Positions 49,262 to 64,000 of a DNA stretch of 64,000 bases are shown in pieces; positions within the stretch are counted from its first letter, which is position 1, and every line of letters starts with the position of its first letter. The position numbers were made by a program, and so were the translations under genes. The notes under the pieces were generated by a model. That model saw only the letters and a list, made by a program, of their open reading frames with translations, had not been told where the DNA came from and ran no database searches. Source of the DNA: Bacillota bacterium (GTDB lineage Bacteria; Bacillota; Sulfobacillia; Fermentithermobacillales; Fermentithermobacillaceae); NCBI GenBank assembly GCA_033810155.1, contig JAPXKJ010000002.1:12252-76251 (forward strand), in the 5' to 3' direction.

Positions 49262-50647
49262 TCATAGCCGAACTACCTTGCTCTCATCATATACTTTACC
49301 TTTCAGCGCATTCCTAGTATCGAGAATCAACTGTGCTTTGTCGACTACCCACTGATAATCAATGTTCGAGTGATCGGTAGTTATGATTACTATATCTGGG
49401 TTTCTTAGTGTTTCCTCAGTTAAAGGTACACTTTCCAGCACAATAGACTTACACTGATCCTGGTTTCCGGCAGCAACTGGAATAGCAATCTTCGGTATAT
49501 AAGGGTCGTGGTAAGAAACTTCCGCTCCTTCTTTAAGCAAAAGGCTTATTACTTTCAAAGCAGGCGACTCTCTATCATCTGGAATATCCTTTTTGTATGT
49601 CACCCCAAGAACCAGCACCTTTGCCCCTCTAAGAGATTTACGCTGGGTACCTAAAAGCCTGCCCGCCTTCTCCACCACAAAATATGGCATCCTAAGATTG
49701 ATCTCACCTGCAAGCTCAATAAAACGGGTTGCGAAGTCATACTCCCGAGCCTTCCAAGAAAGATAAAAAGGGTCTATAGGAATGCAGTGCCCACCTACCC
49801 CAGGTCCTGGATAAAAAGGCTGTATCCCAAATGGCTTAGTAAAAGCTGCATCAAGGACTTCCCAAACATCAAGTCCCATCCTGTCACACAAAAGCGCCAT
49901 TTCGTTAACAAGAGCAATATTAACAGCTCTGTAAGTGTTCTCAAAAACCTTTGCCAGCTCAGCAACAGCCGGTGATGACACTTTTACAACTTCCAAGATG
50001 GTCTGAGAATAGAAAGTAGACGCCACATCCAAACATGAAGGCGTAACCCCGCCTACCAATTTATTCGTGTTTTTCGTAGTGTATCTCGCGTTTCCCGGAT
50101 CTACCCTTTCAGGTGAAAAGGCTAAGAAGAAATCTTCACCCACCTTGAGCCCTGACTTGGCTAAGATCGGAAGTATGACTTCTTCAGTAGTACCGGGATA
50201 AGTGGTACTCTCCAGGCACACCAATTGTCCCCTGTGGAGATGTTTAGATATATCTTCAGAAACACCCACTATGTATTGAAGATCAGGTTCCCTATTTACG
50301 GTGAGAGGAGTAGGCACGCATATTATCACCACGTCACACTCATCTAACACGTCAAACTCAGTCGTAGCTTTAATCAGGCCTTTTTCAACTGCTTCTTTCA
50401 GTTCCTCAGATTTAACATCGAGTATGTAGTTTTCACCTCTATTGATCATGTCCACTCTTTGCGAATTCCGATCTATGCACCAAACTCTAAATCCCACTTT
50501 GGCTTTTTCAACAGCAAGAGGAAGACCTACATACCCGGCACCTACTACTGCAACCGCGGCCTTTCTTTCAACTATTTTCTTCTTAAGTTCTGAAACCACA
50601 TGATTTTCAGATATATTCTCCTGTCGATCATCTTTCTTCATCTCCAC
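49262..50647 (-). CDS. UDP-sugar dehydrogenase (UDP-GlcNAc 6-dehydrogenase, WbpA/TviB-like).
   Basis: Rossmann motif VAVVGAGYVGLPLAV. 461 aa. UDPG/MGDP dehydrogenase family. Confidence 0.7.
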   Translation of the reverse strand: MEMKKDDRQENISENHVVSELKKKIVERKAAVAVVGAGYVGLPLAVEKAKVGFRVWCIDRNSQRVDMINRGENYILDVKSEELKEAVEKGLIKATTEFDVLDECDVVIICVPTPLTVNREPDLQYIVGVSEDISKHLHRGQLVCLESTTYPGTTEEVILPILAKSGLKVGEDFFLAFSPERVDPGNARYTTKNTNKLVGGVTPSCLDVASTFYSQTILEVVKVSSPAVAELAKVFENTYRAVNIALVNEMALLCDRMGLDVWEVLDAAFTKPFGIQPFYPGPGVGGHCIPIDPFYLSWKAREYDFATRFIELAGEINLRMPYFVVEKAGRLLGTQRKSLRGAKVLVLGVTYKKDIPDDRESPALKVISLLLKEGAEVSYHDPYIPKIAIPVAAGNQDQCKSIVLESVPLTEETLRNPDIVIITTDHSNIDYQWVVDKAQLILDTRNALKGKVYDESKVVRL

Positions 50648-50717
50648 ACATACCCCTTCTTTTCAGCCAAAAGTAAACCGCCTGTATTCATAATTCATTC
50701 CTGTAAAAACTCTGTAT

Positions 50718-51839
50718 TTAAAAACCGCTAAAGGCAGAAATTGCATCTACAACATAATCTACCTGATCATCTTTCAGTTCAGGGAACATAGGCAGGGACA
50801 ATACAGTTTTAGATGCTTCCTCTGAATTAGGAAAGTCTCCTTCTTTGTATCCAAGGTCAGAAAACACCTTCTGAAGATGCAAGGGTAGAGGATAGTACAC
50901 AGTAGAAGATATACCTTTATCCTTAAGATAGGCCTGTAAGTCATCTCTATTCTTTGCCCTTATGGTGTATTGATGGTACACATGCCTATTCCCATCCATT
51001 TCCTTAGGAAGCACCAAGTTCCCAGATTTGACTGCATAAGTTCCAGATAGTCCGGAAGTGTATCGCTGGGCGATCCTACGTCTGCTTTCAGTCCATTCTT
51101 CAAGATACTTAAGTTTCACCGAAAGCACCTTTGCTTGTAGAGCATCCAGCCTGCTGTTTATGCCTAACATTTCATGATGGTATTTCTTCCTGCTGCCATG
51201 AACTCTCAAGATTCGGCACTTGTCTGCAATCTCATCATCACTGGTAACTATCATACCTGCATCTCCAAACGCTCCTAAGTTCTTCGTAGGAAAGAAGCTT
51301 AGGCATGCAACATCCCCAAGATTACACACCATCCGACCTCTGTAACTAGCCCCTATGGCCTGGGCCGCATCTTCAATTACCTTGAGCCCATGTTTTCTTG
51401 CAATGTCCATTACGGGATCCATGTCTGCCGACTGACCGTACAAATGCACAGGCAAAATCGCTTTAGTCCTAGATGTAATCTTCTTCTCGATGTCCAAAGG
51501 ATCGATGTTGAAGGTTTCAAGATCAATATCAGCAAAAACAGGCGTTGCACCAGCCCTTACAATTGATCCAGCAGTAGCGAAAAAAGTAAAAGGAGTGGTT
51601 ATGACTTCATCCCCCGGCCCTACACCACACGCTACTAGAGCGATATAAAGGGCATCGCTCCCATTACCCACGCCGATACCGTGCTTTACTTCGCAGAGTT
51701 GGGCAATTTGCGTTTCAAAAAAAGCCACAACATCGCCGAGGATAAACTGCCCGCTTAGCACAACATCCTCAATGGCAGCCATAAGTTCGTCTCTCAATCG
51801 CTGGTTCTGTTCTTTAAGATCAAACGACGGTACTTTCAT
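50718..51839 (-). CDS. DegT/DnrJ/EryC1/StrS-family PLP aminotransferase (WbpE-like).
   Basis: 373 aa with the family-typical GDEVITTPFTFFAT block. Confidence 0.7.
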   Translation of the reverse strand: MKVPSFDLKEQNQRLRDELMAAIEDVVLSGQFILGDVVAFFETQIAQLCEVKHGIGVGNGSDALYIALVACGVGPGDEVITTPFTFFATAGSIVRAGATPVFADIDLETFNIDPLDIEKKITSRTKAILPVHLYGQSADMDPVMDIARKHGLKVIEDAAQAIGASYRGRMVCNLGDVACLSFFPTKNLGAFGDAGMIVTSDDEIADKCRILRVHGSRKKYHHEMLGINSRLDALQAKVLSVKLKYLEEWTESRRRIAQRYTSGLSGTYAVKSGNLVLPKEMDGNRHVYHQYTIRAKNRDDLQAYLKDKGISSTVYYPLPLHLQKVFSDLGYKEGDFPNSEEASKTVLSLPMFPELKDDQVDYVVDAISAFSGF

Positions 51840-51938
51840 ATATGTACGCCACCTTTCATTTTCAACGCTTCCGAAAACACTTGTCTATTCACATGTGAAT
51901 CCTACCATAAATAACCCATTGAGCCAGGCAAAATACCC

Positions 51939-52655
51939 CTAATCTTCCTCTTTTGGATAAATAATCTGTTCTTGAGGAACATCCCCAACTACTCTCGCTG
52001 GAACCCCCATGACCTTGACATAAGGCGGAACGTCCTTGGTAACCACACTTCCAGCAGCAACCATGGCTTCTTGCCCTATGACCACTCCAGGAAGGATTAC
52101 TGCGTTGCCTCCAATTCTAGAGCCTTTTTTTGCAGTAACCCCCTTGGTCTTTTCGAACCTTTCCTGTGTTCTGCCCATAAAATTGTCATTAGTAGTGGTC
52201 ACCATTGGGGCAATAAACACATCCTCTTCAAGGATGGAATGAGCAGTGATGTAAGCACCTGTCTGAATTCTAGTTCTGTCTCCCACCTGGCAATCATTCT
52301 CAACGGTCGCCCCGTGCCCCACAATCACCGACTTCCCTATGTTACATCTTTCTCTCACCTGGGCACTGTCTGCTATGAAACAATCCTCACCCAATGAAGA
52401 ACCAGCATAGATCACGGCACCAACACCTACAAGGCATCTATCTCCAATAAATAGCGGGGGAAGATCACCTGAGGTCTTAAGAGTGCTCGACTTGGCCTTA
52501 GTAGGTTTTTGCCCTAAAACAGCGTTGGCCGATATTCTCACGTCGTTCCCAATTCTGGTATCCGCATATATCACAACATTTGGACCTATCTGAACCCCGT
52601 GACCCAAAGTAACGCCTTCTTCGATCAAGGCTGAGGGATGTATATCAGTTCCCAT
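51939..52655 (-). CDS. Left-handed beta-helix (hexapeptide-repeat) N-acetyltransferase (WbpD-like).
   Basis: 238 aa with repeated [LIV]G.N..I hexapeptides. Confidence 0.65.
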   Translation of the reverse strand: MGTDIHPSALIEEGVTLGHGVQIGPNVVIYADTRIGNDVRISANAVLGQKPTKAKSSTLKTSGDLPPLFIGDRCLVGVGAVIYAGSSLGEDCFIADSAQVRERCNIGKSVIVGHGATVENDCQVGDRTRIQTGAYITAHSILEEDVFIAPMVTTTNDNFMGRTQERFEKTKGVTAKKGSRIGGNAVILPGVVIGQEAMVAAGSVVTKDVPPYVKVMGVPARVVGDVPQEQIIYPKEED

Positions 52656-52703
52656 AAAAAACCTTCTTTCCGAAACAAGTGTCTAAGAACGGTTTTCCTC
52701 TGT

Positions 52704-53717
52704 TTAGTCTAAATCTAGCATCTCACTAATGCAACTTATAACCTTAACGGCTGATAGAACCACATCTGGGACTACAACGTCGTGAGAAATATTCGACAGA
52801 AATTCTGAAATGACCTGCTTATGTGCCCAGCTTGGTTCATGTCTCGGTGCATTTTCGCCCCATTTCGCAAGGAAAGCACCCTCATCATCACCTTCTACCC
52901 GCCAGGTTCTGAAAGAGTCGATCCTGCTTCCACCTAATACAGCAGTACCCTTATCCCCAAAAATGCTCACAGTCTGCTCAAGATTTTTCGGGTAGACGTT
53001 TGTAGTCGCCTCTATTAGCCCTAAGGATCCATCCTCCAATTCCATAGTTCCAAGGACCACATCCTCAGTTTCAATATCGTGAAACCTGGTTGCTGAAATG
53101 CCATGTGTCCTTCTTACAAGACTCCCCATAAACCACAAGAGAAGGTCTAGGGCATGCCAAGCTTGATTGAAGAGAATACCGCCATCCATGTTTCGAGTTT
53201 TTCTCCACGGGGCTTCATCATAGTACGCCTGAGACCTGTTCCACCTAAGAGTCACTACGCCATGGCTTAATTTCCCAAATCTGCCTTGAGAAATACAAGA
53301 CTTCAATATCTGACTAGTCTCATAATATCTGTTAGGGTGAACAGTACCCAAGCACCTATTCACGATCTCAGCTTTAGACACGAGTGCTTCCGCATCTTTT
53401 CGGTTAAGCGTGAGAGGTTTTTCAACTAAGACATGTTTTCCTGCACCTAATGCGTCTAATGCCATCTGAGTATGCATACCGCTAGGTGTTGCAACGATCA
53501 CTGCGTCAATCGATGAATCTCGGAGCATTTCCTTATAATCGTCGTACACCTTTTTTGACGCCGTTTTATTAAGATACTTACAAGCAAAGCGCTCCGCCTT
53601 GCTTATATCAACATCCGAAGCGGCGACAAGATTAGCGTTATCTAATTGTAAGAGTGCTTGGCCGTGTTTTTCTGCTATTGCTCCGCATCCTATGATGCCG
53701 AAGTTCACGTTTTTCAA
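52704..53717 (-). CDS. Gfo/Idh/MocA-family oxidoreductase (WbpB-like). The likely TTG start is at 53717 with a GGAGGG ribosome-binding site, rather than the ORF-track ATG at 53756.
   Basis: Rossmann motif FGIIGCGAIAEKH. The TTG-start N-terminus reads (M)KNVNFGIIGCG. Confidence 0.65.
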   Translation of the reverse strand: MKNVNFGIIGCGAIAEKHGQALLQLDNANLVAASDVDISKAERFACKYLNKTASKKVYDDYKEMLRDSSIDAVIVATPSGMHTQMALDALGAGKHVLVEKPLTLNRKDAEALVSKAEIVNRCLGTVHPNRYYETSQILKSCISQGRFGKLSHGVVTLRWNRSQAYYDEAPWRKTRNMDGGILFNQAWHALDLLLWFMGSLVRRTHGISATRFHDIETEDVVLGTMELEDGSLGLIEATTNVYPKNLEQTVSIFGDKGTAVLGGSRIDSFRTWRVEGDDEGAFLAKWGENAPRHEPSWAHKQVISEFLSNISHDVVVPDVVLSAVKVISCISEMLDLD

Positions 53718-53909
53718 AGATAACCCTCCAATAGAGAAAGCGATTCGATACTGCATTTATTCTAACAAGAAGAGCGTTTTCCTGCAGAAGATGTACCATC
53801 GAGTTAAGCTACCGAAAGGCGAAAATAAATGGGCATGCGTTTTGTGCTACTTTGTGCGATCGTATTGTGTACTGCCAGGTCTATAAGCCACAACTACGAC
53901 AATAAAGAC

Positions 53910-54875
53910 TCATTTCTTCCTTCTTGAATAGTACTTATCCAGCTCGTATAGGATCGCCTGGCTGTAGAACTTCTGTTTTTGCGAGTTTGGATTGTTCGAA
54001 TCAAGATAACGCACATAGGTGTACCTTTGATTGCTTTCGAAGCACTTCCTAATACTATGATATTGTTCGTTCACTTTGAAGTCCACGTACCTATCTTTAC
54101 ATTGTTTGGTCAATTCCTTGTAATTCCAGGGATATCTTCTGCGCATCTCTTCATCAGATAATCCAATCTTGACAGCATCAGGGGCATTGCTCAATCGCAC
54201 CGCCGGTGCACTTGAACTGCAAGAACGTACAAATCGGAGTTCAATGCCTACGGCTATCGAATAGGGCGCAGTCTCATCTTCATACCCCGATTTGAGACCC
54301 TCAAGGTATTGTAAGAATTTCTCTTCGTCTTTGCTTATCTTCACTCTCGTCAGAGAACGTTTTGGGTCATCAAATGAAAGCGGAATGGGGTATATATAGA
54401 AACCAGAAAGGTCACGTTGAAACCAGTCCCACACAATGTTAACGAAGTTATTGATACACGCAACACCAAATTCCTGAGCCTGCTCAACCAGTACAGAATC
54501 ATGGTGGTAAAAATGCACGGCGCCGTCACGCAGGGCTGCAAGTGCTTCAATGTTCCGTTCTATGGCTCCATCCAGTGTTTTTTGTTCCACCATAGTTCGC
54601 GCCAACCACTCTAAACTGTGAGTTTTTGGTGTGCCGCTTCGCGTTCGAACATATCTGACTCCTTTTTTAGCCTCACTTCGTTGGATATAAAGACTATTCA
54701 GCTGATTACCGTGGTCTGCAAGCCACTTGGCCTTAAGCAACAACTCCCAAGCGTTAATCGCAAGGATCGTGAAAGATTCCACACGATACGGTAGGTTAGG
54801 TAGATTATACACACCAATAGCGGCAACCATTGCGTTTATTGCCCGATCAACAAGCTCTTTTGATCGTGCCCTCAT
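53910..54875 (-). CDS. HEPN-like domain protein (candidate RNase / abortive-infection effector).
   Basis: 321 aa. A canonical R[NHQD]xxxH motif (ALRDGAVHF) sits about 120 aa from the N-terminus, after an N-terminal helix (AINAMVAAIGVYNLPNLPYRVESFTILAINAWELLLKAKWL) typical of HEPN/Abi families. The gene lies directly between the RT gene and the glycan cluster. Confidence 0.45.
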   Translation of the reverse strand: MRARSKELVDRAINAMVAAIGVYNLPNLPYRVESFTILAINAWELLLKAKWLADHGNQLNSLYIQRSEAKKGVRYVRTRSGTPKTHSLEWLARTMVEQKTLDGAIERNIEALAALRDGAVHFYHHDSVLVEQAQEFGVACINNFVNIVWDWFQRDLSGFYIYPIPLSFDDPKRSLTRVKISKDEEKFLQYLEGLKSGYEDETAPYSIAVGIELRFVRSCSSSAPAVRLSNAPDAVKIGLSDEEMRRRYPWNYKELTKQCKDRYVDFKVNEQYHSIRKCFESNQRYTYVRYLDSNNPNSQKQKFYSQAILYELDKYYSRRKK

Positions 54876-55603
54876 GGCGATACATCCTTTCTTGGCCAGA
54901 TTCTCTTTCGGTTGTAATCTAGGGCACTTTATCCATTGAGAAGGTAGACGGTATTCTGTACCTACTACTCCTCAATTCTTCTCCCAAGAAAGATCGTAGA
55001 GTTCGCAAACTCCCTGTTCTACCTCCGGCTGACCGGGTTGCTACAGACGCAGGGGTAAGATCCATATTGGTGCCATTCTATTTGCTTCCTAAGAGTCTTT
55101 TCGGTCACGGATTTCTACTAGGGTGCCGACACCAAGAGACTCCCAACTTAGCAAGATAATAGCCGTTATCTCTACAGTTCAAAAAGACCCATAATCCTTG
55201 ACCTAGGTCAAGTCTATTTTTGTGTGTTAGATGCTCTAAGCTCAGACAATCTGCTCGTAGAAAACGTAGTGCTACATAGCTCCCTTGTGATGACAATTAC
55301 TTTCCGGGTAGATACCGCAGCCCTTGGGTTTCTCGTATTCTCTCACACGCTCTTTTCGTTCTTCGGCAATTTTGTTCTCTAGGCTGCACCTTCAATACCT
55401 GCTCTACAACCAATTCGAGTAATTCACCCGACTCCGAATCTTGAAAAGTCCATAAAGATTGTTGCTATAAATCTTCTAAATCTAAGGTAAGCCAGTTATT
55501 TCCTACTATAGTCAATTTGACAGTATGGGAGCCCGCCGTCGACACCGCCACACAACAGCTCTTAATCACATCGCAACGCCCTTTAACACAACTGTTTTCC
55601 AAA
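54876..55603. ncRNA. Non-coding gap of about 730 bp between the RT-nitrilase and HEPN genes. Candidate structured ncRNA or long 3'UTR.
   Basis: Gene spacing elsewhere in this window is tight, whereas this gap holds no credible ORF. It carries a perfect 16-bp palindrome CTTGACCTAGGTCAAG (55197-55212) followed by TCTATTTTTGTG. Confidence 0.25.
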
Positions 55604-58600
55604 TCAAGTGCCCAGTTCTACTCTCTCATATCTGTCTCGCTCATGCCTCACCTTCGGAGGCGGCGTCTTAAAATCCTTCAGTCTCTTACGCACGTCATCT
55701 GTTTCCTCTTTGCCCCTTACTTTCAACAACTTCTCCTTCCAATCCTTCTCCTTATCCATCAATTTGTACTCATACTGCACTTCCCTTGCAAGTCTAAGAT
55801 CTTTAACAGGAACGCTAACAGGGATAGCAAGTCCCTTCTGCGAACCACGGACCCTGAAAATCTCCTTCCGATACTCATGCTTAGGAGTCCAAACTGTTGT
55901 TCCGCCGTACATCCCGTGATTTACTGTAATCGCATTGGCATATAACTCATAACCCTTAGCCCAAGTAACTTGCTCGTAAAGGTCAATATCCTGATTAAAT
56001 GCAAGTATAAAAAGGTGATCTAAAGAACCCTTAAGATCCCCCCACTTCCCTGAAGCAAGAACATCCGCACAGATTGTAACCACAAAATTACCCCACCTAG
56101 GATGGAAAAAACACTTCCATGCATTCCCAGAAGCAAAACGCCAATCTGTATCAGGGAAAACATCCTTTAACGCCCTCAAAAGCCCAACCTCAGAAACTGC
56201 AGGAACACATTTGCGTATGGAAAACTGATACACCTCCGTAGGCAGATCAAATTTATAGCCCTTACCATGAGAAGAACTATTCTTATGCGTCTCCCTTGTT
56301 TCCGAACCAGGCATTATCAAAACCGCTTCATTGACCAAACACCTAAGCCCTACCTTACGAACATCACGAACTACTGGCACCGCCCTAGGAAGCTCATAAG
56401 GAAGCAATCCGCACAAGATCGCAATGCCGCTCTGCATGGAAAACCGCCTCAGATCCCTAATGCGCCCCCTATCCACATACCACTCAGGGAACACGATCAT
56501 ATCAGGATAGGGCCTGCTACCTCGATCTCGCCCGTCACCCACAGCTACCCTAGCCTCGCTGTAGGCTTGCTGCAGACTTGCAGCCATTTCCTCCCATACT
56601 TTTTCCATAGATTCCCTGCTTACAGAAAAGAACGGACGATCTCGAGAAGGAAGCCACTTGGAATAATCGGGTATCTCAACGCCTTGAATGAGCCTTAAGT
56701 TAAACTCCTCAGCACAATATGAACTGCTATCGTCATGCAAATTCCCATCAGGAGGTGACATCAAATCCCAACCACCGTTAATATGGAATTCAACACACCT
56801 TATCCATGGATCTTTTAGTAACTCTTTGCACTGATCCTCAGTGGCAGTTATCATCCTCTTACTAACGTCGCTCTCACTTATGATACCAAAACCCTTTTCT
56901 AACTCGTGCATCAGATAATAAGGAAGCATGAGATTTGCTCTAACATCTTTACGATCTGATAAGGGTAGGATCCAAGGGTGAAACTCAAACATTTGGTCTA
57001 GCAATCTTTCAGAACCCTCAAGCAACCATAGAAGAAGAGCTCCTAACTGGGAATCAGGCGTTCTACCTTCATTTAGATAATGTAAACAGATGAACAAAGG
57101 ATGAGGTGCGGGATGACCCAAACCCAATGGGATAACTTCTGTTTTCAACTTAGATCTGCTAGATAAACCTTCTCCGTCCCCTTGTTGATCATCGCCTAAT
57201 AAAAATGACCCCTGAAACACCCTTTCATTGCTATTTACCAACTCATTCCTCCTAAAGTCCACCAAAAGTCTAAAAGAATCATCATCGAGGCAAACTGTAG
57301 AAGGAGCAACCACATTTCCTGCCTTCGCCGCACTTCGCGCACTAGACCATACTTGCCATGCTAAAGGCCACTGCAAGCCTAAAGATGGTACCTGAGAAGG
57401 CCTAGGAGGTCTTTCGGTACAAACTCCTTCTTCACCATCTAGATTGTAAAAGGCATAGTAAAGGGATTTTTCAAACGCACCGGCTCCGTCGCCATCTTTT
57501 AACCCTGTAAAAATGGAGAACCAGTCTTTAAACAAGCTAGTAGGAACGTATATATCGTGTGCCATAAGAAGGCGTCTCAAAGAAGCGTAGTCTTGCAGTC
57601 GAATAAAGCATTTCCACAAGTAGGTCAACCTATCATCTACATATCGTGCCTTAAACGGCCCCGTCACCACAGGATTATCCTTTGAATAAAGCGAATCCCA
57701 AAGAGACACCCGAGCCAATGACGCCCAGTTCGGATCGCAAGTCCCAGGCAAAACCTTAGCCGCAATCTCCCGCTTAGTAATAGCGATCTCATTTTCGTCA
57801 GGTGTGTACCAATTGCCAAAGTAACGCGTGAGCCATAACGAGCTTAGCCCAGAATCTGCGTTATTCCCCGAAGCAACGGGAAAACTACCTTGTCCCTCAT
57901 ATGACGCGGTTCGCCCGAGTAATTCGCGTATTCGCCCTTGGACTTCAAAGTCATGCGAAAGTATCATAGAAATCGCGTAATTTCGCACATCCTCCGGTCC
58001 TAGTGAAGATCTAAATGCTTGAGCACAAGAAGAACCTAGCGAATCCAAAACATCTTCTGCAAAGTCCAAAGCAGTATAGCTCACGCTTTCAGCCCAGAAA
58101 GGTCTATTCCCATCGGGCAGATCCATTATCTCTCTGTGAATTTCATTAAGATTTTCGGCAGATAAGACTGTCAAACAACCATCGATCAGCGCTTCTTGCT
58201 CCCACCACCAAAGAAACGGTTCTTTGGACCACTTCCAAGTCCAATCGCCATACAAAACGCTAGCAAATCTGCTAATATCGCCAAACTCCTTAAGCAATAG
58301 CTTTGCATCTTCGGCGCCGAAAAAGGCCAGCCAACCGCCTAAAAGAGCCTCATCATCACCATCGGCTATTTTCTGCAAGGCATTTATGCAATAGGACCAC
58401 TCTCGCCAAAACTGGGTTCGGTGAAAACTGGTTCTTTCCCGACACCTATGAATTTGAGCCATTCTCAAGCGATCTGCGTACCTACATTTATGTTTAAGGT
58501 CAGGGTAGTCTCTGAACGTTCGTGGATCCCATTCCCATTTGGTGTTTCCAGCCGAAAGGTAGCCTTCCATGTCGACCTCTTCATCCTTAGAAACCCATTG

Positions 58601-60754
58601 TATAATCGGCAATATCTGCTCAGTCAACCACTTAAAACCTGCCCGTTCTGGGACTTCCCCGCCTTGTACCTCAAAATACGCAGACGCCCTCAGAGCTACA
58701 ATTATAATTGCCCTCCAAAGTTTGAACCGCCAAGGATGTCTACGCAAAGCGGTCTCGGCTATCAACATAATCTTCTTTACATAAGTGGTAGCGCTAATTA
58801 TCTCCCCTTCCCTAAGAACCGACCCCTTGGGCCAAGAAGCTCTTGCCAACCTGTTTACAGCAAAAGACAGACGAGCATCGGCTCCTACTTCAAAATCTTC
58901 GATTTCAAGAGTAGCCAACTCCATCAGTTCTTCAAGCCTCTCGATGCCGTAAGCGCCAAATCGCTCTCCAAAAGTCTCTTCACTTATCCCGCTCATCTGC
59001 CTAACAATCTCAGTCGTAAACAACTCTAGATTCTTCCTGGTAAGGTAATCGTCGGGGAGTAAGTATTTCCGCAGCGGATTATTGTCTCCTCCGTATGGAG
59101 GAGGCACTTCTTGCAAAGGAATCTCTTTTCCAGTCGTCTTAATTTCGTGGTTCGGAGTACTTTCATTCCTGTTTTTCTCGCTAAGCTTACTGGATTTAGT
59201 CCGCTTGGTCATATAATTTCTCACACCCTGCGGTTTCATCTTGGAAAGGTTAAGCTGCAAGTCATCTCCTGTATACTCTTTCAGCGATTCCTTAAGTTCT
59301 AAGATAGCTTGTTCCAAAACCTCTGGATCTTTCGCCAAAATAACCACATCGTCTGCAAATCGAAGGTAAATCATAGGACCTGCGGATGTCTTGTCGATTC
59401 TATCTGATAATTCAACCATACGCTCATCTACAGGTGTCAACACAACATTGAGCAAGAATCCTGATATGGCGAGACCCGTTGGCAAACCATCATTTCTTTT
59501 TACAATTTCATTTGAACTAGAGCCTTGTAAAGAAGGCTTCACTTCCAAAGGAGCAAAACCATGGGGACCAATCCACAACCGATCTTCGTTTCCTAATAAT
59601 TCCGAACACTTGTCCGGATTCGCTTCATTATGAGCGTCAGCCTCGTCCCTACAGGCCTTTTCGCCAGAAGATGAACAACTGTCGCAGGGCGCCCATGTGT
59701 TTACGCTATCTTCCCAATCAGAAGGTACGTTCCAAGGCAAGTACGTAACAGAATCAAGTAGTGACATAAGGTGTTCTGCAAGTCTTATCCTTGCGCGTTC
59801 ATTTTGTTCCTGTCTAAGATACTCCCAAGGGTGTTGAATACTGGAACTATGTCCTGAACCCCAATAGGACTCAATAGAATCCTGAAAGCCTTTTGATCTT
59901 GGACGCTTTAAGGACGGAAATTTAGGTCGCCCAAAACCTGTGTATTTCATCTCTTGGGAATCTGTCTTACCTTCTATCTTGTTTCGTACTAACGAAGTCA
60001 TTGTAACTCGGAGTATATTTCTATTCACAGAAGGAAAAGCCATTTTAAGGTCCAGTTTTGCATATGTCAAATCTATCGGTTCTTGGTTCTTCTTTTCCCG
60101 TAGATAATTCAAATAGGGAAGCAGATCGGGATCTTCCTCAAAAATCTCCTCATATTGGAAGGAACTCGAGGATTTTTCGCTGCCAATTACGTAGTAGTTC
60201 GTAAGCCACTGCAACACCCGTCTGAACAGACCATAGCCAGCCGCAAAGCCAGTATAAACTTGCTTGTGATTAAGAGAAAAAGGCGCTTGGAACCAGCGTT
60301 TATTTTTTTCGGATAGTGTTTCGTCCTCTGATTCGGATGATTTTTCGTTTTTCGGTTCCTTTCGAACCCTGGGCCTGTACAGACGATTGCCCATGGAAAC
60401 ATTCGGCATCCTAGCCTCAAGAAAGGGACCTAGTAGGACCATAAATACGGTAAATGCCACCTGATCACGCACTGATGGCATTACAAAGTGTCGAGTATAT
60501 CCGCCTTTTTTAGGATAGGGAATTTCAGGAAAAGGGCCAGGCGAATACGTACCTTGTGCTAACTCATAAGAAAGCTCGCCTAAGTGACGCCAAGGATCCG
60601 CCTTCCATTCCAGAATCTCAGCAGGGTCGTGCCACTCCCCACCAGAGTACCAATTCAATACCTTGTTCCATGCAGCGCGCATCACCCACGGGCTAAAGAG
60701 CACATTAGCTTCTTCTTCTGAATAGGGAAATTTGATATCTGCGATGGAAACCAC
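55604..60754 (-). CDS. Reverse transcriptase fused to a C-terminal carbon-nitrogen hydrolase (nitrilase) domain, DRT1/UG1-like defence-associated RT. 1,716 aa.
   Basis: RT motifs are present: motif 1 (RHFVMPSVRDQVAFTVFMVLLGPFLE), motif A (YAKLDLKMAFPSVNR), motif B' (LPTGLAISGFLLNVVLTPVD), YxDD (YLRFADDVVIL) and motif 6 (LQLNLSKMKP). There is an insertion of about 180 aa between motifs A and B'. The C-terminal roughly 300 aa carries a nitrilase-type E-K-C pattern (MIVFPEW ... ETHK ... VVTICADVL). No retron msr/msd, group II intron or DGR features were seen. The start is GTG with a weak ribosome-binding site. Confidence 0.7.
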   Translation of the reverse strand: MVSIADIKFPYSEEEANVLFSPWVMRAAWNKVLNWYSGGEWHDPAEILEWKADPWRHLGELSYELAQGTYSPGPFPEIPYPKKGGYTRHFVMPSVRDQVAFTVFMVLLGPFLEARMPNVSMGNRLYRPRVRKEPKNEKSSESEDETLSEKNKRWFQAPFSLNHKQVYTGFAAGYGLFRRVLQWLTNYYVIGSEKSSSSFQYEEIFEEDPDLLPYLNYLREKKNQEPIDLTYAKLDLKMAFPSVNRNILRVTMTSLVRNKIEGKTDSQEMKYTGFGRPKFPSLKRPRSKGFQDSIESYWGSGHSSSIQHPWEYLRQEQNERARIRLAEHLMSLLDSVTYLPWNVPSDWEDSVNTWAPCDSCSSSGEKACRDEADAHNEANPDKCSELLGNEDRLWIGPHGFAPLEVKPSLQGSSSNEIVKRNDGLPTGLAISGFLLNVVLTPVDERMVELSDRIDKTSAGPMIYLRFADDVVILAKDPEVLEQAILELKESLKEYTGDDLQLNLSKMKPQGVRNYMTKRTKSSKLSEKNRNESTPNHEIKTTGKEIPLQEVPPPYGGDNNPLRKYLLPDDYLTRKNLELFTTEIVRQMSGISEETFGERFGAYGIERLEELMELATLEIEDFEVGADARLSFAVNRLARASWPKGSVLREGEIISATTYVKKIMLIAETALRRHPWRFKLWRAIIIVALRASAYFEVQGGEVPERAGFKWLTEQILPIIQWVSKDEEVDMEGYLSAGNTKWEWDPRTFRDYPDLKHKCRYADRLRMAQIHRCRERTSFHRTQFWREWSYCINALQKIADGDDEALLGGWLAFFGAEDAKLLLKEFGDISRFASVLYGDWTWKWSKEPFLWWWEQEALIDGCLTVLSAENLNEIHREIMDLPDGNRPFWAESVSYTALDFAEDVLDSLGSSCAQAFRSSLGPEDVRNYAISMILSHDFEVQGRIRELLGRTASYEGQGSFPVASGNNADSGLSSLWLTRYFGNWYTPDENEIAITKREIAAKVLPGTCDPNWASLARVSLWDSLYSKDNPVVTGPFKARYVDDRLTYLWKCFIRLQDYASLRRLLMAHDIYVPTSLFKDWFSIFTGLKDGDGAGAFEKSLYYAFYNLDGEEGVCTERPPRPSQVPSLGLQWPLAWQVWSSARSAAKAGNVVAPSTVCLDDDSFRLLVDFRRNELVNSNERVFQGSFLLGDDQQGDGEGLSSRSKLKTEVIPLGLGHPAPHPLFICLHYLNEGRTPDSQLGALLLWLLEGSERLLDQMFEFHPWILPLSDRKDVRANLMLPYYLMHELEKGFGIISESDVSKRMITATEDQCKELLKDPWIRCVEFHINGGWDLMSPPDGNLHDDSSSYCAEEFNLRLIQGVEIPDYSKWLPSRDRPFFSVSRESMEKVWEEMAASLQQAYSEARVAVGDGRDRGSRPYPDMIVFPEWYVDRGRIRDLRRFSMQSGIAILCGLLPYELPRAVPVVRDVRKVGLRCLVNEAVLIMPGSETRETHKNSSSHGKGYKFDLPTEVYQFSIRKCVPAVSEVGLLRALKDVFPDTDWRFASGNAWKCFFHPRWGNFVVTICADVLASGKWGDLKGSLDHLFILAFNQDIDLYEQVTWAKGYELYANAITVNHGMYGGTTVWTPKHEYRKEIFRVRGSQKGLAIPVSVPVKDLRLAREVQYEYKLMDKEKDWKEKLLKVRGKEETDDVRKRLKDFKTPPPKVRHERDRYERVELGT

Positions 60755-60974
60755 CTTCTACATATTATTAGGTCCAATATTCTATGCACCTGGTATATAT
60801 CCTTTAGTGTATCCTTTAGGAACAAGGTCCCTGCGCTTTTCACATTTAAACGCCATACATGGGGTATCCGATACACGAAGAGAAGGTTAAGATAGTCTTG
60901 CACCGATATTTTGAGTAACGATAGCCCATCTTTTACCCTAGCTTTCCTTCATTCCAGGGATGCCTATTTATCAA

Positions 60975-61375
60975 TCTGGCTCACTCCATAGACCACTTAC
61001 TTCCTCTTCGCCCTCACTACATGAAAAAGTGGCTCATCTGATAGACCACTTTCCTCAGTCTCACCATCATCAGCTCTAAAAAGTGGCTCACTGGTTGAGC
61101 CACTTACGTTTAGAATCAAATAAACATGGATAAAACTGGCTCACCAGGTGAGCCAGTTTTGACCTTCTTATCTGAGTTTCCCTAGAAAGTGGCTCAGTAC
61201 ATATACCACTTTGCTTCTCGGAAGGATGTTATTAATGGAAAAGTGGCCTACTGTGTAGGCCACTTTCCTTGTTCCTCCCTTGCCAACCTACCAAAGTGGC
61301 TCACCACATATGCCACTTTCTTTCCCTCTACCCTAAGAATCTGCCAACAGTGGCCAATGGGATAGGCCACTTCTT
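60975..61375. repeat. Cluster of eight REP-like palindromes immediately upstream of the RT-nitrilase gene. It includes perfect palindromes with compensatory arm changes.
   Basis: AAAACTGGCTCACC-A-GGTGAGCCAGTTTT (61132-61160) and AAAGTGGCCTAC-TGT-GTAGGCCACTTT (about 61240-61267), compared with the family consensus AAGTGGCTCA...TGAGCCACTT. Confidence 0.8.
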
Positions 61376-61384
61376 TGGTGTCCA

Positions 61385-62107
61385 TCACTTATTTTGAAAC
61401 CTCATATCCCGCGCCCTAGCCCGTTCCGAGTATTTCATGTACTGCAGACACATTTCCTCCACACCCTTAGCGTAGACGCTATTTACATCGAATAGTTTAG
61501 TAGGCACATGCTCTGGAACTTTCTCTAGCATGGTATCGATCTTAAGATCTTTGGAAGTGATCGTAATCAAAGTAACGCCTTGCTCGCAACTAAGCTGCGC
61601 CTTCATCAAATCCCTCTCTTTAGTTCGTTCGAACTCAATTTCATCAGAGAATTGAGGAGTGGTTTCGTAATGCTGCCTTCCGTTGAACTCCCAAGCGACT
61701 TTTACGTCAGGCGCAAAACAATCGTATTCAAGGAATTCTTTAGTAAGAGGATTCTGCAAAAACCAAGGCCTGCAATTGTAGATAAAAGGAGCTACATCCA
61801 CAATTAGATCCAACAACAAATTCATTTTGTTCTCACCCCCTCGGGGATGGAACTTATCTACTTCTTTGGCGTGTTCGAGTTTTGCCTTCTGAACCTCTAA
61901 AGGCCCGGTAGGAATCATGACCTTCTTTCCAGGTGTTTCATAGATGAGAAGCCACTGTGCTTCCTGCAAGGAACCGACCAAATTCGTGACTACACTTCGA
62001 TTCATCCCAGTTCGGTCAGCGAGTTCGCGGATGGATTTGGGTTTGAATGCAATTATGCTCATGTACAAAAACTTAGCCCGCGGGTCTATAGAATTATCTG
62101 CTAACAA
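61385..62107 (-). CDS. Winged-HTH (MarR-like) domain fused to a DUF559/Vsr-like endonuclease-fold domain.
   Basis: N-terminal LADRTGMNRSVVTNLVGSLQEAQWL. C-terminal YDCFAPDVKVAWEFNGRQHY...ERDLMKAQLSCEQGVTLITI matches the DUF559 pattern D(F/C)..P...hAhE.DG.QH...D..Rd..L...G..hh.h. Confidence 0.5.
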   Translation of the reverse strand: MLADNSIDPRAKFLYMSIIAFKPKSIRELADRTGMNRSVVTNLVGSLQEAQWLLIYETPGKKVMIPTGPLEVQKAKLEHAKEVDKFHPRGGENKMNLLLDLIVDVAPFIYNCRPWFLQNPLTKEFLEYDCFAPDVKVAWEFNGRQHYETTPQFSDEIEFERTKERDLMKAQLSCEQGVTLITITSKDLKIDTMLEKVPEHVPTKLFDVNSVYAKGVEEMCLQYMKYSERARARDMRFQNK

Positions 62108-62295
62108 AGCACGTGGAACTCGTGTAACTTTCTGCCTCGAAGGAAGTAAAAGTCCACGCTCAATTACCCTTTTTTGAAGAACATCTCGAATCTCACATCA
62201 CCTCCGTGTGTAGCAATACCTTCACTCTATTACCATATACCATATTATACCAGTAAAGGCAAAGGTTACTTACACGAAAGGAAAAAGCAGAAAGA

Positions 62296-62324
62296 GAAGC
62301 AGAAAGTGCCGTCCCCGGTGCTTC
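62296..62324. repeat. Copy of the GAAGCA hairpin motif (GAAGCAGAAAGTGCCGTCCCCGGTGCTTC) in the divergent region between the wHTH-DUF559 and MCP genes.
   Basis: Matches the consensus of the other six copies. Confidence 0.65.
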
Positions 62325-62420
62325 ATTTCAGGTCTAATCCTACAAAACAGCTCCTCTTTGATCGATAACAAAGTAAACAGAAATGTCTATAGCAAGATAC
62401 GAACGTCATCTCTATGGGAA

Positions 62421-64000
62421 GTGATAAATTTGAAACTAAACTTACGGCTTAAAGGCAAATTGGTGCTTTCATACTTGGCAGTCGTGATACTGAGTTGTAC
62501 GCTTTTGGGAGGCATCCTCTTCTCTCAGGTATCCACCAGGACACAGGAAGACTTAGAGGCGCGTCTGCTCAGCATCGTACAAACAGTCGCTCAACACATA
62601 GATGGCGACCAGCACGCCCTCCTTACATCCTATGAAATGGAATCTTCGCCTTTTTACATTCAAGCCCAACGCAAACTTCAACAGGTCATGGAAGCAAACC
62701 CTGATCTGGTCTACCTGTATACTTTGGCAAAAACCCCCGACGGTAAAGTCTATTTCGTGCTAGACGCCGCTGTCGGCGAAGACCACTCGGACCTCGCGAG
62801 CACATATGAATCAAACCCGGACATGGAGAAATCTTTTTCCGGAATAGCGACAACAGTCTCTGATTTTATCACCGATGACTGGGGCACTTTTCTCTCAGGT
62901 TATGCACCTATAAAAGACTCCAAAGGCGAGATTGTAGGCGTTGTAGCCGCGGACATCGCCGCCGATCATGTCCAAGCTGCCCGGAGAAAACTTCTAACAT
63001 CAACCTTTACCATTGGACTAATTGCCGTAGCTATTGCCTCGGGAGTAGGCATTTGGATGTCGTATTCTATTTCTTCGCCCCTTACAAATACAGTGTATTT
63101 GCTCAAAGACATCGCTGAAGGAGAAGGCGATCTTACCAAACGAATTGAGGTAAATTCTAAGGATGAGTTAGGTGATTTAGGGCATTGGTTCAACGTTTTT
63201 GTCGACAAAATCCACAGCATAGTCGCCCAAATCGCATCTGATGCGACTGAGGTTTCCTCCACTAGCGAGGAACTAGCAGCAGGTGGGGCACAAGTAAGCG
63301 CTGCGGCAGAACAGATATCTACTGCAATAGCCGAGGTTGCAAAAGGGGCCCAGGAGCAGACCACCAACGCTGGTAGCGCTACAGAATTCCTTGAGGAGAT
63401 AACACAGGTCATCGAACAGATCGCCCGTGACGCTCAGGCACAAGAAGCTAACACTGAATCAGCAAATGTCATCGTAAACAGCATGATTTCGGCCCTCGAT
63501 TCAGTCGCTTCGGGCCTCGAGAATACAGTAAGAGTAAGCCAGGAGAACCAAGCTTCTGCATCTAACGGAATTGACACAGTTCAAGCGGCCGTAGAAAGCG
63601 TTACCCGGTTGAGAGAGACAACCTCAAACGTAGTTAAGGGCATTTCGCAACTTGACTCACATTCTCAGCAGATAGGACAGATCTTGGAGATAATAAGCGA
63701 CATCGCCGATCAAACTAACCTATTGGCCCTTAATGCAGCGATAGAAGCGGCTCGGGCTGGCGAACATGGGCGTGGATTTGCAGTTGTAGCCGACGAGGTA
63801 AGAAAACTAGCCGAAAGATCCGCCGCCGAAACTAAAGCCATTGAGAACCTCATAAGTCAGACCTTGCGCGATACCAAACACCTGTCAAACACCATCGCTG
63901 AAACCGCAGAAGAGGTAGAGCGCGTAAATGAGCACGTAGGGAAAGCCGGCTCAGCCCTAAGTCAAGTCGCGTACACAGCCGAAGAATCGCAAGCACATGT
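62421..64000 (+). CDS. Methyl-accepting chemotaxis protein with an N-terminal transmembrane segment, a Cache-like periplasmic domain, HAMP and the MCP signalling domain. The 3' end is cut off by the window. The start is GTG at 62421 or TTG at 62430.
   Basis: Open frame from about 62421 to the window end. It carries the conserved MCP methylation/signalling helices ([38 protein letters not shown]). It is absent from the ORF track because there is no in-window stop. Confidence 0.8.

What the first reader, a model, noticed from the sequence alone, without database searches (positions are those of the whole stretch)
53910..62107. Candidate composite defence islet: HEPN-like gene, 730-bp non-coding gap, RT-nitrilase gene with an upstream REP cluster, and a wHTH-DUF559 gene, wedged between an O-antigen cluster and an MCP gene
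Four co-directional minus-strand elements sit together with no housekeeping function. The first is a winged-HTH fused to a Vsr/DUF559 endonuclease fold. The second is the giant RT-nitrilase. The third is a long non-coding stretch. The fourth is a protein with a canonical HEPN R[NHQD]xxxH motif. They lie directly after the start of a 15-kb polysaccharide cluster, a classic site for accessory insertions. The islet is flanked upstream by eight REP-like palindromes and a GAAGCA-hairpin copy. Described DRT1 is a single-gene system. Linkage to a HEPN RNase-like protein and a nuclease-fold regulator could therefore mean a new multi-component RT system, for example RT product or nitrilase activity coupled to a HEPN effector. 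Alternatively it could be two or three independent defence genes co-located in an island.
Basis: inference. Interest (0 to 1): 0.8.

Follow-up and report, generated by a model that had tools for sequence, protein, structure and literature searches.

The report
Two independent defence genes, not one system
The region holds a rare giant reverse-transcriptase–nitrilase defence gene and, beside it, a separately acquired HEPN-nuclease cassette. They sit in a variable spot at the head of a surface-sugar gene cluster, and they are neighbours rather than parts of one new multi-gene system.

Summary
All the described elements exist at the stated coordinates.

- **Co-occurrence.** 47 distinct loci with relatives of the 1716-aa RT-nitrilase contain no DUF3644/HEPN or wHTH relative. 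Of 93 loci with relatives of the HEPN protein, only the same-population contig L084 has the RT-nitrilase.
- **Close strains.** The 728-bp gap and the HEPN gene form one ~1.8-kb cassette. It is ~99% identical between strains whose RT genes are ~90% identical. In other strains unrelated DNA replaces it, starting within ~40 bp of the RT stop codon.
- **The gap.** It has no Rfam match and no unusual folding. It is not conserved upstream of 74%-identical HEPN genes. It carries a weak stop-interrupted gene remnant.
- **The wHTH gene.** It is lineage-specific. Relatives at 57-61% identity sit among housekeeping genes. No profile supports DUF559.
- **The REP palindromes.** They are genome-wide.

What remains of interest is the RT-nitrilase. 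Its catalytic residues are intact and dN/dS is 0.28. Its closest solved relative is DRT1. No UG profile matches it beyond local stretches, only 94 cluster representatives share its middle domain, and its relatives are embedded in BREX and Hma operons. It is a new variant of a known kind.

The parts
55604..60754 (-). Giant RT-nitrilase gene (1716 aa, GTG start). It is a stand-alone class-3-like UG/Abi defence reverse transcriptase.
   Evidence: ORF. RVT_1 and nitrilase profile hits. Closest solved structure is DRT1 9YFD, E 4e-24. dN/dS is 0.28 against the strain in L056.
59348..59359 (-). RT catalytic motif FADD (residues 466-469).
   Evidence: Translation. D468 and D469 are invariant in 25 homologues. 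The motif aligns to the DRT1 stretch that contains its catalytic D324/D325 (PMC13275509).
56705..59074 (-). Family-specific middle domain (residues 561-1350).
   Evidence: Residues 701-1350 have no PADLOC hit. Only 94 representatives among 1.84 billion match residues 561-1350 at E<=1e-3, most of them 1300-1700-aa proteins and the rest shorter proteins, probably fragments.
55775..56701 (-). C-terminal nitrilase (C-N hydrolase) domain, residues 1352-1660. The catalytic Cys1562 codon is at 56069-56071.
   Evidence: PADLOC RTasNitrilase, UG5-nitrilase and Drt1a hits. C1562 aligns to DRT1 C1116. E1424, K1515 and C1562 are invariant.
56534..60961 (.). Segment deleted in related strains L066-L070. 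It covers the RT and middle domains plus the promoter region. Only a 265-291-aa nitrilase remnant ORF is left there.
   Evidence: blastn joins. The remnant ORF hits RTasNitrilase. Junction sequence.
53795..55603 (-). HEPN cassette: the 728-bp gap plus the DUF3644 gene, behaving as one unit with its own recent history.
   Evidence: Identity to L056 is 98.6% in the gap and 99.4% in the gene, against 89.6% in the RT gene and 95-96% in the sugar genes. Divergence steps occur at ~55600 and ~53800. In L068 unrelated DNA replaces the stretch between 55640 and 53790.
54876..55603 (-). 728-bp non-coding stretch. It is probably decayed DNA plus the leader or promoter of the HEPN gene.
   Evidence: No Rfam match. 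Fold z-score +0.96. Not conserved upstream of 74%-identical HEPN genes. Absent next to the RT remnants in L067 and L068.
54993..55157 (-). Weak remnant, with two in-frame stops, of a ~103-aa small ORF. An intact version lies ~1.9 kb upstream of the DUF3644 gene in other loci, separated from it by an hsdS-like ORF in L095 and L099.
   Evidence: tblastn 32 bits to ORFs in L094, L095, L099 and L105. None of 300 dinucleotide shuffles reached that score.
53910..54875 (-). DUF3644 HEPN protein (321 aa), PADLOC candidate single-gene system PDC-S19. The Rx4H motif codons are at 54513-54530.
   Evidence: In the Foldseek search of the AF2 model, solved HEPN toxins make up most of the best-ranked matches, and the C-terminal domain resembles a winged helix.
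60974..61372 (.). Array of 8 REP-like palindromes (AAAGTGGCTCA..TGAGCCACTTT) with a 53-54 bp period. It is a genome-wide repeat, not part of a system.
   Evidence: The same arrays occur at 6160-6502 and 25697-26948.
61385..62107 (-). Lineage-specific 240-aa protein with an N-terminal MarR-like wHTH and a conserved C-terminal domain of unknown fold. It is a flanking gene, not a conserved partner of the RT.
   Evidence: Its family has only 15 clusters. Relatives at 57-61% identity sit among housekeeping genes.
62296..62324 (.). GAAGCA-N17-TGCTTC hairpin, one of 6 copies in the window. Similarity to relatives L066-L070 begins at 62328.

Best explanation
The region is a variable hotspot between a lineage-specific wHTH gene and the first gene of a surface-polysaccharide cluster. 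It holds two independent single-gene defence modules side by side.

Module 1 is a giant RT-nitrilase. By inference from its distant relative DRT1, it works on its own. The RT domain would make short untemplated DNA attached to the protein itself. That DNA would hold nitrilase oligomers in a dormant state until a phage factor releases the nitrilase effector and the infection is aborted.

Module 2 is a ~1.8-kb cassette made of a 728-bp non-coding stretch and a DUF3644 HEPN gene (PDC-S19). It was acquired or exchanged separately and more recently. By inference it acts as a stand-alone HEPN ribonuclease against phage or plasmids.

The gap is not an RT template RNA. It belongs to the HEPN cassette and is most likely decayed flanking DNA plus the promoter or leader. 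The wHTH gene and the REP array are bystanders.
For: No conserved linkage:
- phmmer and profile HMMs of the HEPN and wHTH families found nothing within up to 10 kb (less where the contig ends) of 54 RT-nitrilase loci, 47 of them distinct and from many phyla.
- Clustering the neighbours of those loci gave no partner shared across the family.
- Of 93 DUF3644 loci, only L084 (same population, 99% identical) has the RT-nitrilase.

Separate histories in close strains:
- Against L056 the RT gene is 89.6% identical, the gap 98.6%, the HEPN gene 99.4% and the sugar genes 95-96%. The divergence steps fall at the RT stop codon and just after the HEPN stop.
- L068 keeps an RT remnant and the same sugar genes, but has an unrelated 1-kb segment in place of the gap and HEPN gene. 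L067 has yet another cargo.

Each module is a known single-gene type:
- Class-3 RT-nitrilases DRT1 and DRT11 work as single genes, and no ncRNA has been found for class 3 (PMC13275509, PMC13436386).
- Single-gene HEPN defences with a DUF3644-type N-terminal domain have been tested experimentally: HEC-08 and Ishtar (10.1101/2024.01.29.577857; 10.64898/2026.07.06.735840).

The RT-nitrilase is functional and defence-linked:
- FADD and the nitrilase Cys are invariant and align to stretches holding the DRT1 catalytic residues.
- dN/dS is 0.28.
- Relatives are embedded co-directionally in BREX in 10 loci, follow HmaC in one, and lie beside DruE- and Ppl-like genes in others.

The gap:
- No Rfam hit and fold z-score +0.96.
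- No conservation upstream of 74%-identical homologues.
- In 69 other loci the DUF3644 gene usually overlaps an upstream hsdS or type IIG methylase gene by 4 bp. The long gap is therefore atypical for the family, and it carries a weak pseudogene trace.
Against: - Within this population the RT-nitrilase and the HEPN cassette are adjacent and co-directional in every contig that spans both. Read-through transcription or local cooperation is therefore not excluded.
- All function is inferred. No activity data exist for this RT-nitrilase clade or for PDC-S19.
- Similarity to DRT1 is limited to the RT palm and the nitrilase core, with weak N-terminal stretches. The DRT1 priming serine cannot be mapped.
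- The pseudogene trace in the gap is weak (32 bits).
- 99% identity of the gap says nothing about selection, because the flanking HEPN gene is equally young.
Confidence: 0.8

Rival explanations
1. A new multi-component RT system: the RT-nitrilase product or activity is coupled to the HEPN protein as effector, and the wHTH-nuclease protein acts as regulator.
For: The elements are co-directional and adjacent in the window and in same-population contigs L056, L057, L062 and L084. Some distant relatives have an HTH regulator directly upstream of the RT: an RmrA-like protein in L016, L030 and L041, and an XRE-type protein in L006.
Against: There is no co-occurrence in 47 distinct RT-nitrilase loci or in 92 other DUF3644 loci. 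The RT gene and the HEPN cassette diverged differently, and the cassette is replaced in L067 and L068. wHTH relatives sit among housekeeping genes. A 630-bp REP array and a 728-bp gap separate the genes.
Confidence: 0.04
2. The 728-bp gap encodes a functional non-coding RNA. It could be a template or scaffold for the RT, as in DRT2, DRT3 and DRT9, or an RNA antitoxin or regulator for the HEPN nuclease.
For: The gap is long and ORF-poor, and it sits between an RT and a nuclease. It always travels with the HEPN gene in this population. HEPN toxins usually need a neutralising partner, and none is encoded nearby.
Against: No Rfam family matched at E<=1. The folding energy is not below that of shuffles (z +0.96). 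No similarity was found upstream of 74%-identical HEPN homologues or near any RT-nitrilase relative. The gap is absent beside the RT remnants in L067 and L068. No ncRNA has been identified for class-3 RT-nitrilases, and RNA-seq of the DRT11 (UG5-large) locus showed none (PMC13436386). In most loci the family's genes overlap an upstream R-M gene, so there is no such gap.
Confidence: 0.07
3. The RT-nitrilase is not a working defence gene here. It could be a decaying relic, or an enzyme with another cellular role.
For: Related strains L066-L070 have lost 4.4 kb of the gene, so it is dispensable. No UG profile covers it, and no member of the clade has been tested.
Against: The 5151-bp ORF is intact in the window and in L056, with dN/dS 0.28 in all three domains. 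The catalytic residues of both enzymes are invariant across 25 relatives at 24-54% identity. Relatives are embedded in BREX and Hma operons and lie beside Druantia- and Ppl-like genes. Presence/absence and deletion variants are typical of defence genes.
Confidence: 0.08

Closest known systems
DRT1 (UG1) and DRT11 (UG5-large): class-3 UG/Abi RT-nitrilase single-gene defence systems
   Same: The order RT, helical extension, C-terminal C-N hydrolase is the same. The RT xxDD motif and the nitrilase Cys align to the DRT1 stretches that contain D324/D325 and C1116. The gene is single, with no conserved partner and no conserved flanking RNA. It is associated with defence islands. A variable, poorly conserved loop follows the RT palm, where DRT1 carries its priming serine. 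A conserved C-terminal tail (FKxPPP) follows the nitrilase domain.
   Different: It is 1716 aa, against about 1200-1300 aa for UG1 (PMC9226505; the solved DRT1 chain is 1229 aa) and 1005 aa for the tested UG5-large protein. UG1, UG5, UG6 and UG29 profiles match only the ~100-aa palm or the nitrilase. Residues 701-1350 match no PADLOC model, and only 94 cluster representatives match residues 561-1350. A ~180-aa insertion lies between RT motifs 3 and 4. There is no N-terminal primase, unlike UG29. No TM partner gene was seen beside it. Relatives are recurrently embedded in BREX and Hma operons, which is not reported in any paper of the searched library.
DUF3644-type HEPN defence proteins: PADLOC PDC-S19, HEC-08, Ishtar, and the EC042_2821 family of Anantharaman 2013
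   Same: It has an N-terminal DUF3644 HEPN domain with an invariant Rx4H motif. It is a ~320-aa single polypeptide that matches the PDC-S19 model over its full length. The family is patchily distributed across phyla and occurs in viral contigs.
   Different: [quoted passage not shown] Family members usually overlap an upstream hsdS or type IIG methylase gene, but this copy sits behind 728 bp of non-coding DNA next to an RT gene. PDC-S19 itself is an untested candidate.
Defence genes embedded in or clustered beside other systems (guilt-by-embedding, Payne et al. 2024) and defence hotspots next to surface-polysaccharide loci
   Same: Cargo differs at one site between conserved flanks in close strains (window, L067, L068). 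Relatives of both modules are embedded in BREX, Hma or R-M operons elsewhere.
   Different: Here neither module is embedded in a larger system. The hotspot is bounded by a REP array with a wHTH gene on one side and by the WbpB-like first gene of a glycan cluster on the other.

Membership tests
Class-3 UG/Abi RT-nitrilase (DRT1/UG1, UG5-large/DRT11, UG29) | RT domain with a catalytic xxDD palm motif | tested here: met
   RVT_1 hit at residues 414-507. FADD at 466-469 is invariant and aligns to the DRT1 stretch containing D324/D325.
Class-3 UG/Abi RT-nitrilase (DRT1/UG1, UG5-large/DRT11, UG29) | C-terminal C-N hydrolase domain of the UG-associated nitrilase clade with a Glu-Lys-Cys triad | tested here: met
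   RTasNitrilase E 7e-30, UG5-nitrilase E 9e-26, Drt1a E 3e-21. E1424, K1515 and C1562 are invariant, and C1562 aligns to DRT1 C1116.
Class-3 UG/Abi RT-nitrilase (DRT1/UG1, UG5-large/DRT11, UG29) | Full-length match to one of the defined groups (UG1, UG5, UG6, UG29) | tested here: not met
   All UG models match only the ~100-aa palm or the nitrilase. Residues 701-1350 match nothing. NCBIfam gives no Drt model above its cut-off.
Class-3 UG/Abi RT-nitrilase (DRT1/UG1, UG5-large/DRT11, UG29) | Works as a single gene, without a conserved partner gene or ncRNA | tested here: met
   No neighbour family is shared across 47 distinct loci. No conserved flank was found. This is a genomic proxy only.
Class-3 UG/Abi RT-nitrilase (DRT1/UG1, UG5-large/DRT11, UG29) | Enrichment in defence islands | tested here: met
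   Embedded in BREX in 10 loci, following HmaC in L040, next to DruE- or Ppl-like genes in L009 and L008.
Class-3 UG/Abi RT-nitrilase (DRT1/UG1, UG5-large/DRT11, UG29) | [quoted passage not shown] | not testable with these tools
   This needs biochemistry. The DRT1 priming serine S402 is not conserved even among class-3 groups (PMC13275509).
DUF3644 HEPN / PADLOC PDC-S19 | Pfam DUF3644 above the gathering score and a full-length PDC-S19 profile match | tested here: met
   149.1 bits against a cut-off of 27.6. PDLC04954 E 2.6e-111 over residues 1-320 of a 330-position model.
DUF3644 HEPN / PADLOC PDC-S19 | HEPN Rx4-6H catalytic motif | tested here: met
   RDGAVH at residues 116-121. R116 and H121 are invariant in 33 sequences.
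DUF3644 HEPN / PADLOC PDC-S19 | HEPN four-helix fold | tested here: inconclusive
   AF2 model pLDDT 73.5. In the Foldseek search HEPN toxins make up most of the best-ranked matches (5yep SO_3166, 7bxo HepT, sacsin), with probability 0.4-0.8 and TM 0.5-0.6 on the target, but E>0.1.
HEC-08 | [quoted passage not shown] | tested here: not met
   In the AF2 model the confidently predicted part of the C-terminal region (residues ~241-312) is helix-helix-helix-strand-strand and resembles PadR/LmrR winged helices. Residues 203-237 are poorly predicted. The only invariant Cys in the family is C259, so no conserved Cys pairs are present.
DUF559 / Vsr-like endonuclease (claimed for the 240-aa protein) | Match to the DUF559 or Vsr profile, or to a solved Vsr-like structure | tested here: not met
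   0 of 13 family members hit DUF559 at E<=10. No PDB sequence hit. AF2 model pLDDT 44, unusable. Only a by-eye E-x-D ... E-F-[DN]-G-x-Q-H motif remains.
Multi-gene RT defence system (RT plus accessory effector or regulator) | Recurrent co-occurrence of the component genes across unrelated genomes | tested here: not met
   No co-occurrence in 47 distinct RT-nitrilase loci or in 92 DUF3644 loci outside this population. wHTH relatives lie in housekeeping contexts.

The most novel reading that the evidence does not exclude
The ~1400-1700-aa RT-nitrilase family represented here may be a distinct, so far unclassified type of defence reverse transcriptase. It has its own ~800-aa middle domain and an expanded RT. 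It is rare, occurs almost only in uncultured lineages, and is recurrently embedded in BREX and Hma operons. It would use DRT1-like chemistry but with its own trigger or regulation. A further, much less likely layer is that in this lineage it cooperates with the adjacent HEPN cassette.
Probability: 0.4. Interest if true: 0.55.

Novelty: new variant of a known kind. Interest (0 to 1): 0.4.

Why it matters
The proposed multi-component system would have been a new class of RT defence, and the evidence says it is not one. That saves a cloning effort aimed at the wrong unit.

Three things are worth keeping.
1. A rare RT-nitrilase clade lies outside the current UG groups, with both catalytic centres conserved and recurrent embedding in BREX and Hma operons. 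It extends class-3 defence RTs and offers a second, very divergent model beside DRT1 for how untemplated DNA synthesis controls a nitrilase effector, whose substrate is still unknown.
2. The locus is a clean natural example of a defence hotspot at the head of a variable surface-glycan locus. Among close strains it shows cassette swapping, an internal deletion of the RT gene, and a recently spread HEPN cassette.
3. This copy of PDC-S19 lies outside its usual R-M operon, which is useful for asking whether the protein works alone.

Tried and rejected
- **Rfam scan** of 53500-62600 at E<=1 gave only a chance-level hit (21.8 bits against a gathering score of 174.8) inside the REP array.
- **tRNA scan** of the whole window found none, so there is no tRNA-linked integration site.
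- **RNA folding of the gap** gave z = +0.96, no better than shuffles.
- **Promoter and terminator scans** were not above shuffles, and the terminator-like hits in the upstream gap are the REP hairpins.
- **blastn of both RT flanks** against 54 RT-nitrilase loci found nothing.
- **Exact look-up of the window's own contig** failed. The wHTH protein is not on record, and the RT protein's own cluster did not appear in the homology search. Boundaries were therefore inferred from other strains' contigs.
- **Structure prediction of the wHTH protein** failed (pLDDT 44), so no fold search was run on it.
- **A profile of the wHTH family against PDB sequences** gave only weak MarR/ArsR hits.
- **tblastn of the RT-nitrilase against plasmids** gave only 6% coverage of the nitrilase core in two E. 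coli plasmids.
- **Paralogues of the three proteins** elsewhere in the window: none found.
- **REP array as a CRISPR-like or RT-specific element**: rejected, because the same arrays occur at two other unrelated sites and the loops and spacers are degenerate copies of each other.
- **wHTH as a regulator that travels with the RT**: considered because L066-L070 keep the wHTH gene, the REP array and the RT remnant together. Rejected as a conserved linkage because those loci are one population and more distant wHTH relatives lack any RT.
Full report
**1. What is in the sequence**

The minus strand carries three ORFs:
- 53910-54875, 321 aa
- 55604-60754, 1716 aa, GTG start
- 61385-62107, 240 aa

A 728-bp gap (54876-55603) and a 630-bp gap (60755-61384) separate them.

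Downstream, the first gene is a GFO/IDH/MocA oxidoreductase (52704-53756). It heads a ~15-kb glycan cluster that runs down to a WecA-like gene at 38711. The cluster also contains a hexapeptide acetyltransferase, a DegT aminotransferase, a UDP-sugar dehydrogenase, a Wzy_C protein, GT1 glycosyltransferases and a UDP-GlcNAc 2-epimerase.

Upstream, on the + strand, an MCP gene with HAMP and MCPsignal domains starts at 62421.

Names attached to near-identical proteins suggest an uncultured Bacillota lineage close to Candidatus Fermentithermobacillaceae. A more distant wHTH relative (61% identical) came from an anaerobic-digester metagenome. The organism assignment is inference.

**2. Identity of each element**

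*The 321-aa protein* is Pfam DUF3644 (149 bits). It matches PADLOC's single-gene candidate PDC-S19 over its whole length (E 2.6e-111).
- DUF3644 was defined as a HEPN family, EC042_2821, found in R-M operons (PMC3710099).
- Its RDGAVH (residues 116-121) is the Rx4H motif. R116 and H121 are invariant in 33 homologues at 45-74% identity.
- An AF2 model (pLDDT 73.5) finds solved HEPN toxins among its best Foldseek matches, though with weak statistics. The small C-terminal domain resembles a winged helix.

*The 1716-aa protein* has four recognisable parts:
- an RT domain, with D235 and FADD at 466-469
- a variable loop after the palm
- a long middle region with no match to any defence profile
- a C-terminal nitrilase whose invariant E1424, K1515 and C1562 include the Cys that aligns to the catalytic C1116 of DRT1

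The closest solved structure is DRT1 (9YFD, E 4e-24). UG1, UG5, UG6 and UG29 models match only the palm or the nitrilase.

*The 240-aa protein* has a weak MarR-type wHTH, found in 11 of 13 family members. Its C-terminal domain is conserved but of unknown fold. The DUF559/Vsr claim has no profile or structural support.

*The eight palindromes* at 60974-61372 are real. They belong to a genome-wide element that forms larger arrays at 6160-6502 and 25697-26948. The GAAGCA hairpin has six copies in the window.

**3. Are the genes linked? Distant comparisons**

*RT-nitrilase relatives.* There are 93 clusters of relatives, the closest only 50% identical. I fetched 54 loci, 47 of them distinct, all from MAGs across many phyla.
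- Neither phmmer nor family HMMs found any DUF3644 or wHTH relative within up to 10 kb (less where the contig ends) of any of them.
- Clustering of neighbours found no partner shared across the family.

*HEPN relatives.* The family is large, with 321 clusters across many phyla and also viral contigs.
- Among 93 fetched loci, only L084, a 99%-identical copy from the same population, has the RT-nitrilase.
- One viral contig, L075, has an ordinary 320-aa RT 3 kb away.
- In 69 loci with enough upstream sequence, the median distance to the upstream ORF is -4 bp. That ORF is typically co-directional and is an hsdS gene, an MmeI/Eco57I-type methylase or an Mrr_N protein. The family therefore normally sits inside R-M operons, as published.

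*wHTH relatives.* The family is tiny, with 15 clusters at 53% identity or more. Relatives at 57-61% identity lie next to YchF and OsmC, or next to FxsA, pyruvate kinase, PFK and DnaE. None has an RT, a HEPN gene or glycan genes nearby.

**4. Are the genes linked? Close strains**

- L056 has the same order: RT, gap, HEPN, glycan genes.
- Identity to the window differs sharply by segment: 89.6% in the RT gene, 98.6% in the gap, 99.4% in the HEPN gene and 95-96% in the glycan genes.
- Differences per 100 bp fall from about 8 to about 1 at the RT stop codon (~55600). They rise again near 53800.
- The gap plus the HEPN gene is therefore one ~1.8-kb cassette with a recent history of its own.
- L066-L070 keep the wHTH gene and the REP array (window 62328-60962, ~90% identical). 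They then jump to window 56533, so 4.4 kb of the RT gene is deleted. What remains is a 265-291-aa nitrilase remnant ORF.
- Similarity to the window stops within ~40 bp of the RT stop codon: at 55640 in L068 and 55612 in L067.
- L068 then has an unrelated 1-kb segment with a 193-aa ORF of no known family. It rejoins the window at ~53790, in front of the same glycan genes (97% identical).
- L067 carries a different small ORF and a rhamnose-type cluster.
- Upstream of the wHTH gene these strains have a UDP-sugar dehydrogenase instead of the MCP gene.

The site is a hotspot with swappable cargo, and the RT gene and the HEPN cassette are separable units.

**5. The 728-bp gap**

- It goes with the HEPN gene, not with the RT (section 4).
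- It has no Rfam match.
- It folds no better than shuffled sequence (z +0.96).
- It shares nothing with the upstream regions of 74%-identical HEPN genes except ~50 bp next to the start codon.
- It shares nothing with the flanks of RT-nitrilase relatives.
- One frame (54993-55157) retains a stop-interrupted trace of a ~103-aa ORF. The intact ORF lies ~1.9 kb upstream of the DUF3644 gene in L094, L095, L099 and L105, with an hsdS-like ORF between them in L095 and L099. The trace scores 32 bits, and none of 300 dinucleotide shuffles reached that score. It is suggestive only.

The most economical reading is decayed flanking DNA carried along with the cassette, now providing the promoter or leader. 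No ncRNA has been identified for class-3 RT-nitrilases, and RNA-seq of the DRT11 (UG5-large) locus showed none (PMC13436386).

**6. The RT-nitrilase as the item of interest**

- The gene is intact in the window and in L056. The two proteins are 86% identical, with dN/dS of 0.28 in the RT, 0.29 in the middle and 0.23 in the nitrilase parts.
- Its middle domain (residues 561-1350) matches only 94 of 1.84 billion cluster representatives at E<=1e-3. Most are 1300-1700-aa proteins of the same family and the rest are shorter, probably fragments.
- Relatives sit between brxC and pglX in L016, L030, L035 and L041, in three of them (L016, L030, L041) with an RmrA-like HTH-M78 gene just upstream of the RT.
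- Relatives sit between pglXI and pglZ in L020, L022, L025, L031 and L043, with a partial case in L034.
- A relative directly follows HmaC in L040. Others lie beside DruE-like and Ppl-like genes in L009 and L008.
- By the guilt-by-embedding argument of Payne et al. (10.1101/2024.01.29.577857), this strongly supports a defence role.
- No paper in the searched library links RT-nitrilases with BREX embedding.

**7. Likely mechanism (inferred, not shown)**

*RT-nitrilase.* By homology to DRT1, the RT would add short untemplated DNA to a residue of the same protein. The adducts would drive nitrilase-mediated oligomers into a dormant state, and a phage factor would release the nitrilase to abort infection (PMC13275509).
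- Shown here: conservation of both catalytic centres, the domain order, a variable post-palm loop, and a conserved C-terminal tail.
- Inferred: everything else.

*HEPN protein.* By analogy to HEC-08 and Ishtar it is probably a stand-alone RNase, with its C-terminal winged-helix-like domain acting in sensing or regulation.
- Shown here: family membership and the catalytic motif.
- Inferred: the activity, the target, and how self-toxicity is controlled.

**8. Verdict**

The multi-component interpretation is not supported. The RT-nitrilase is a new variant of a known kind. Interest is moderate.

Noticed in passing
window 6160-6502, 25697-26948, 60974-61372: REP-like palindromes (AAAGTGGCTCA-loop-TGAGCCACTTT) occur as regularly spaced arrays with a 53-54 bp period. 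The middle array has about 20 units organised in a 267-bp higher-order repeat, 4.6 copies at 91% identity. Contigs of related strains tend to break at these arrays.
   Followed up: partly
window 6617, 12455, 12502, 22600, 38661, 62296: A second repeat family, the hairpin GAAGCA-N17-TGCTTC, has 6 copies against 0.16 expected by chance. The copy at 62296-62324 sits exactly where similarity to related strains L066-L070 begins (62328).
   Followed up: partly
L016, L030, L035, L041; L020, L022, L025, L031, L034, L043; L040; L009; L008: Distant relatives of the RT-nitrilase are embedded co-directionally inside BREX operons (brxC-RT-pglX and pglXI-RT-pglZ). One directly follows HmaC, and others lie next to DruE-like or Ppl-like genes. 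In L016, L030 and L041 an RmrA-like HTH-M78 regulator gene lies just upstream of the RT.
   Followed up: partly
L066-L070, corresponding to window 56534-60961: Related strains carry a 4.4-kb deletion that removes the RT and middle domains. It leaves a 265-291-aa ORF made of the nitrilase domain only. This could be a decaying relic or possibly a stand-alone nitrilase.
   Followed up: partly
window 49120-53756, and L056, L061, L062, L067, L068: The first four glycan genes resemble a WbpA/B/D/E-type set (UDP-sugar dehydrogenase, oxidoreductase, acetyltransferase, aminotransferase). They are shared by close strains, but the cluster diverges completely beyond ~49120-49212, and L067 has a rhamnose-type cluster instead. 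The surface-glycan locus is itself a diversity hotspot.
   Followed up: partly
L094 440-751, L095, L099, L105: A conserved ~103-aa ORF lies ~1.9 kb upstream of the DUF3644 gene in several R-M loci, with an hsdS-like ORF between them in L095 and L099. By eye it looks GIY-YIG-like, but it has no Pfam hit. It may be a recurring companion of the R-M-embedded HEPN gene.
   Followed up: no
L068 3051-3632: A 193-aa ORF with no Pfam or PADLOC match occupies the position held by the HEPN cassette in the window. It may be another unknown hotspot cargo gene.
   Followed up: partly
window 55604-60754: The window's own RT-nitrilase did not appear at or near 100% identity in the 5.8-billion-protein search, although its neighbours are in the collection from a 103,989-bp NCBI contig. 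Its homologue in L056 is called with a start 32 codons shorter.
   Followed up: no
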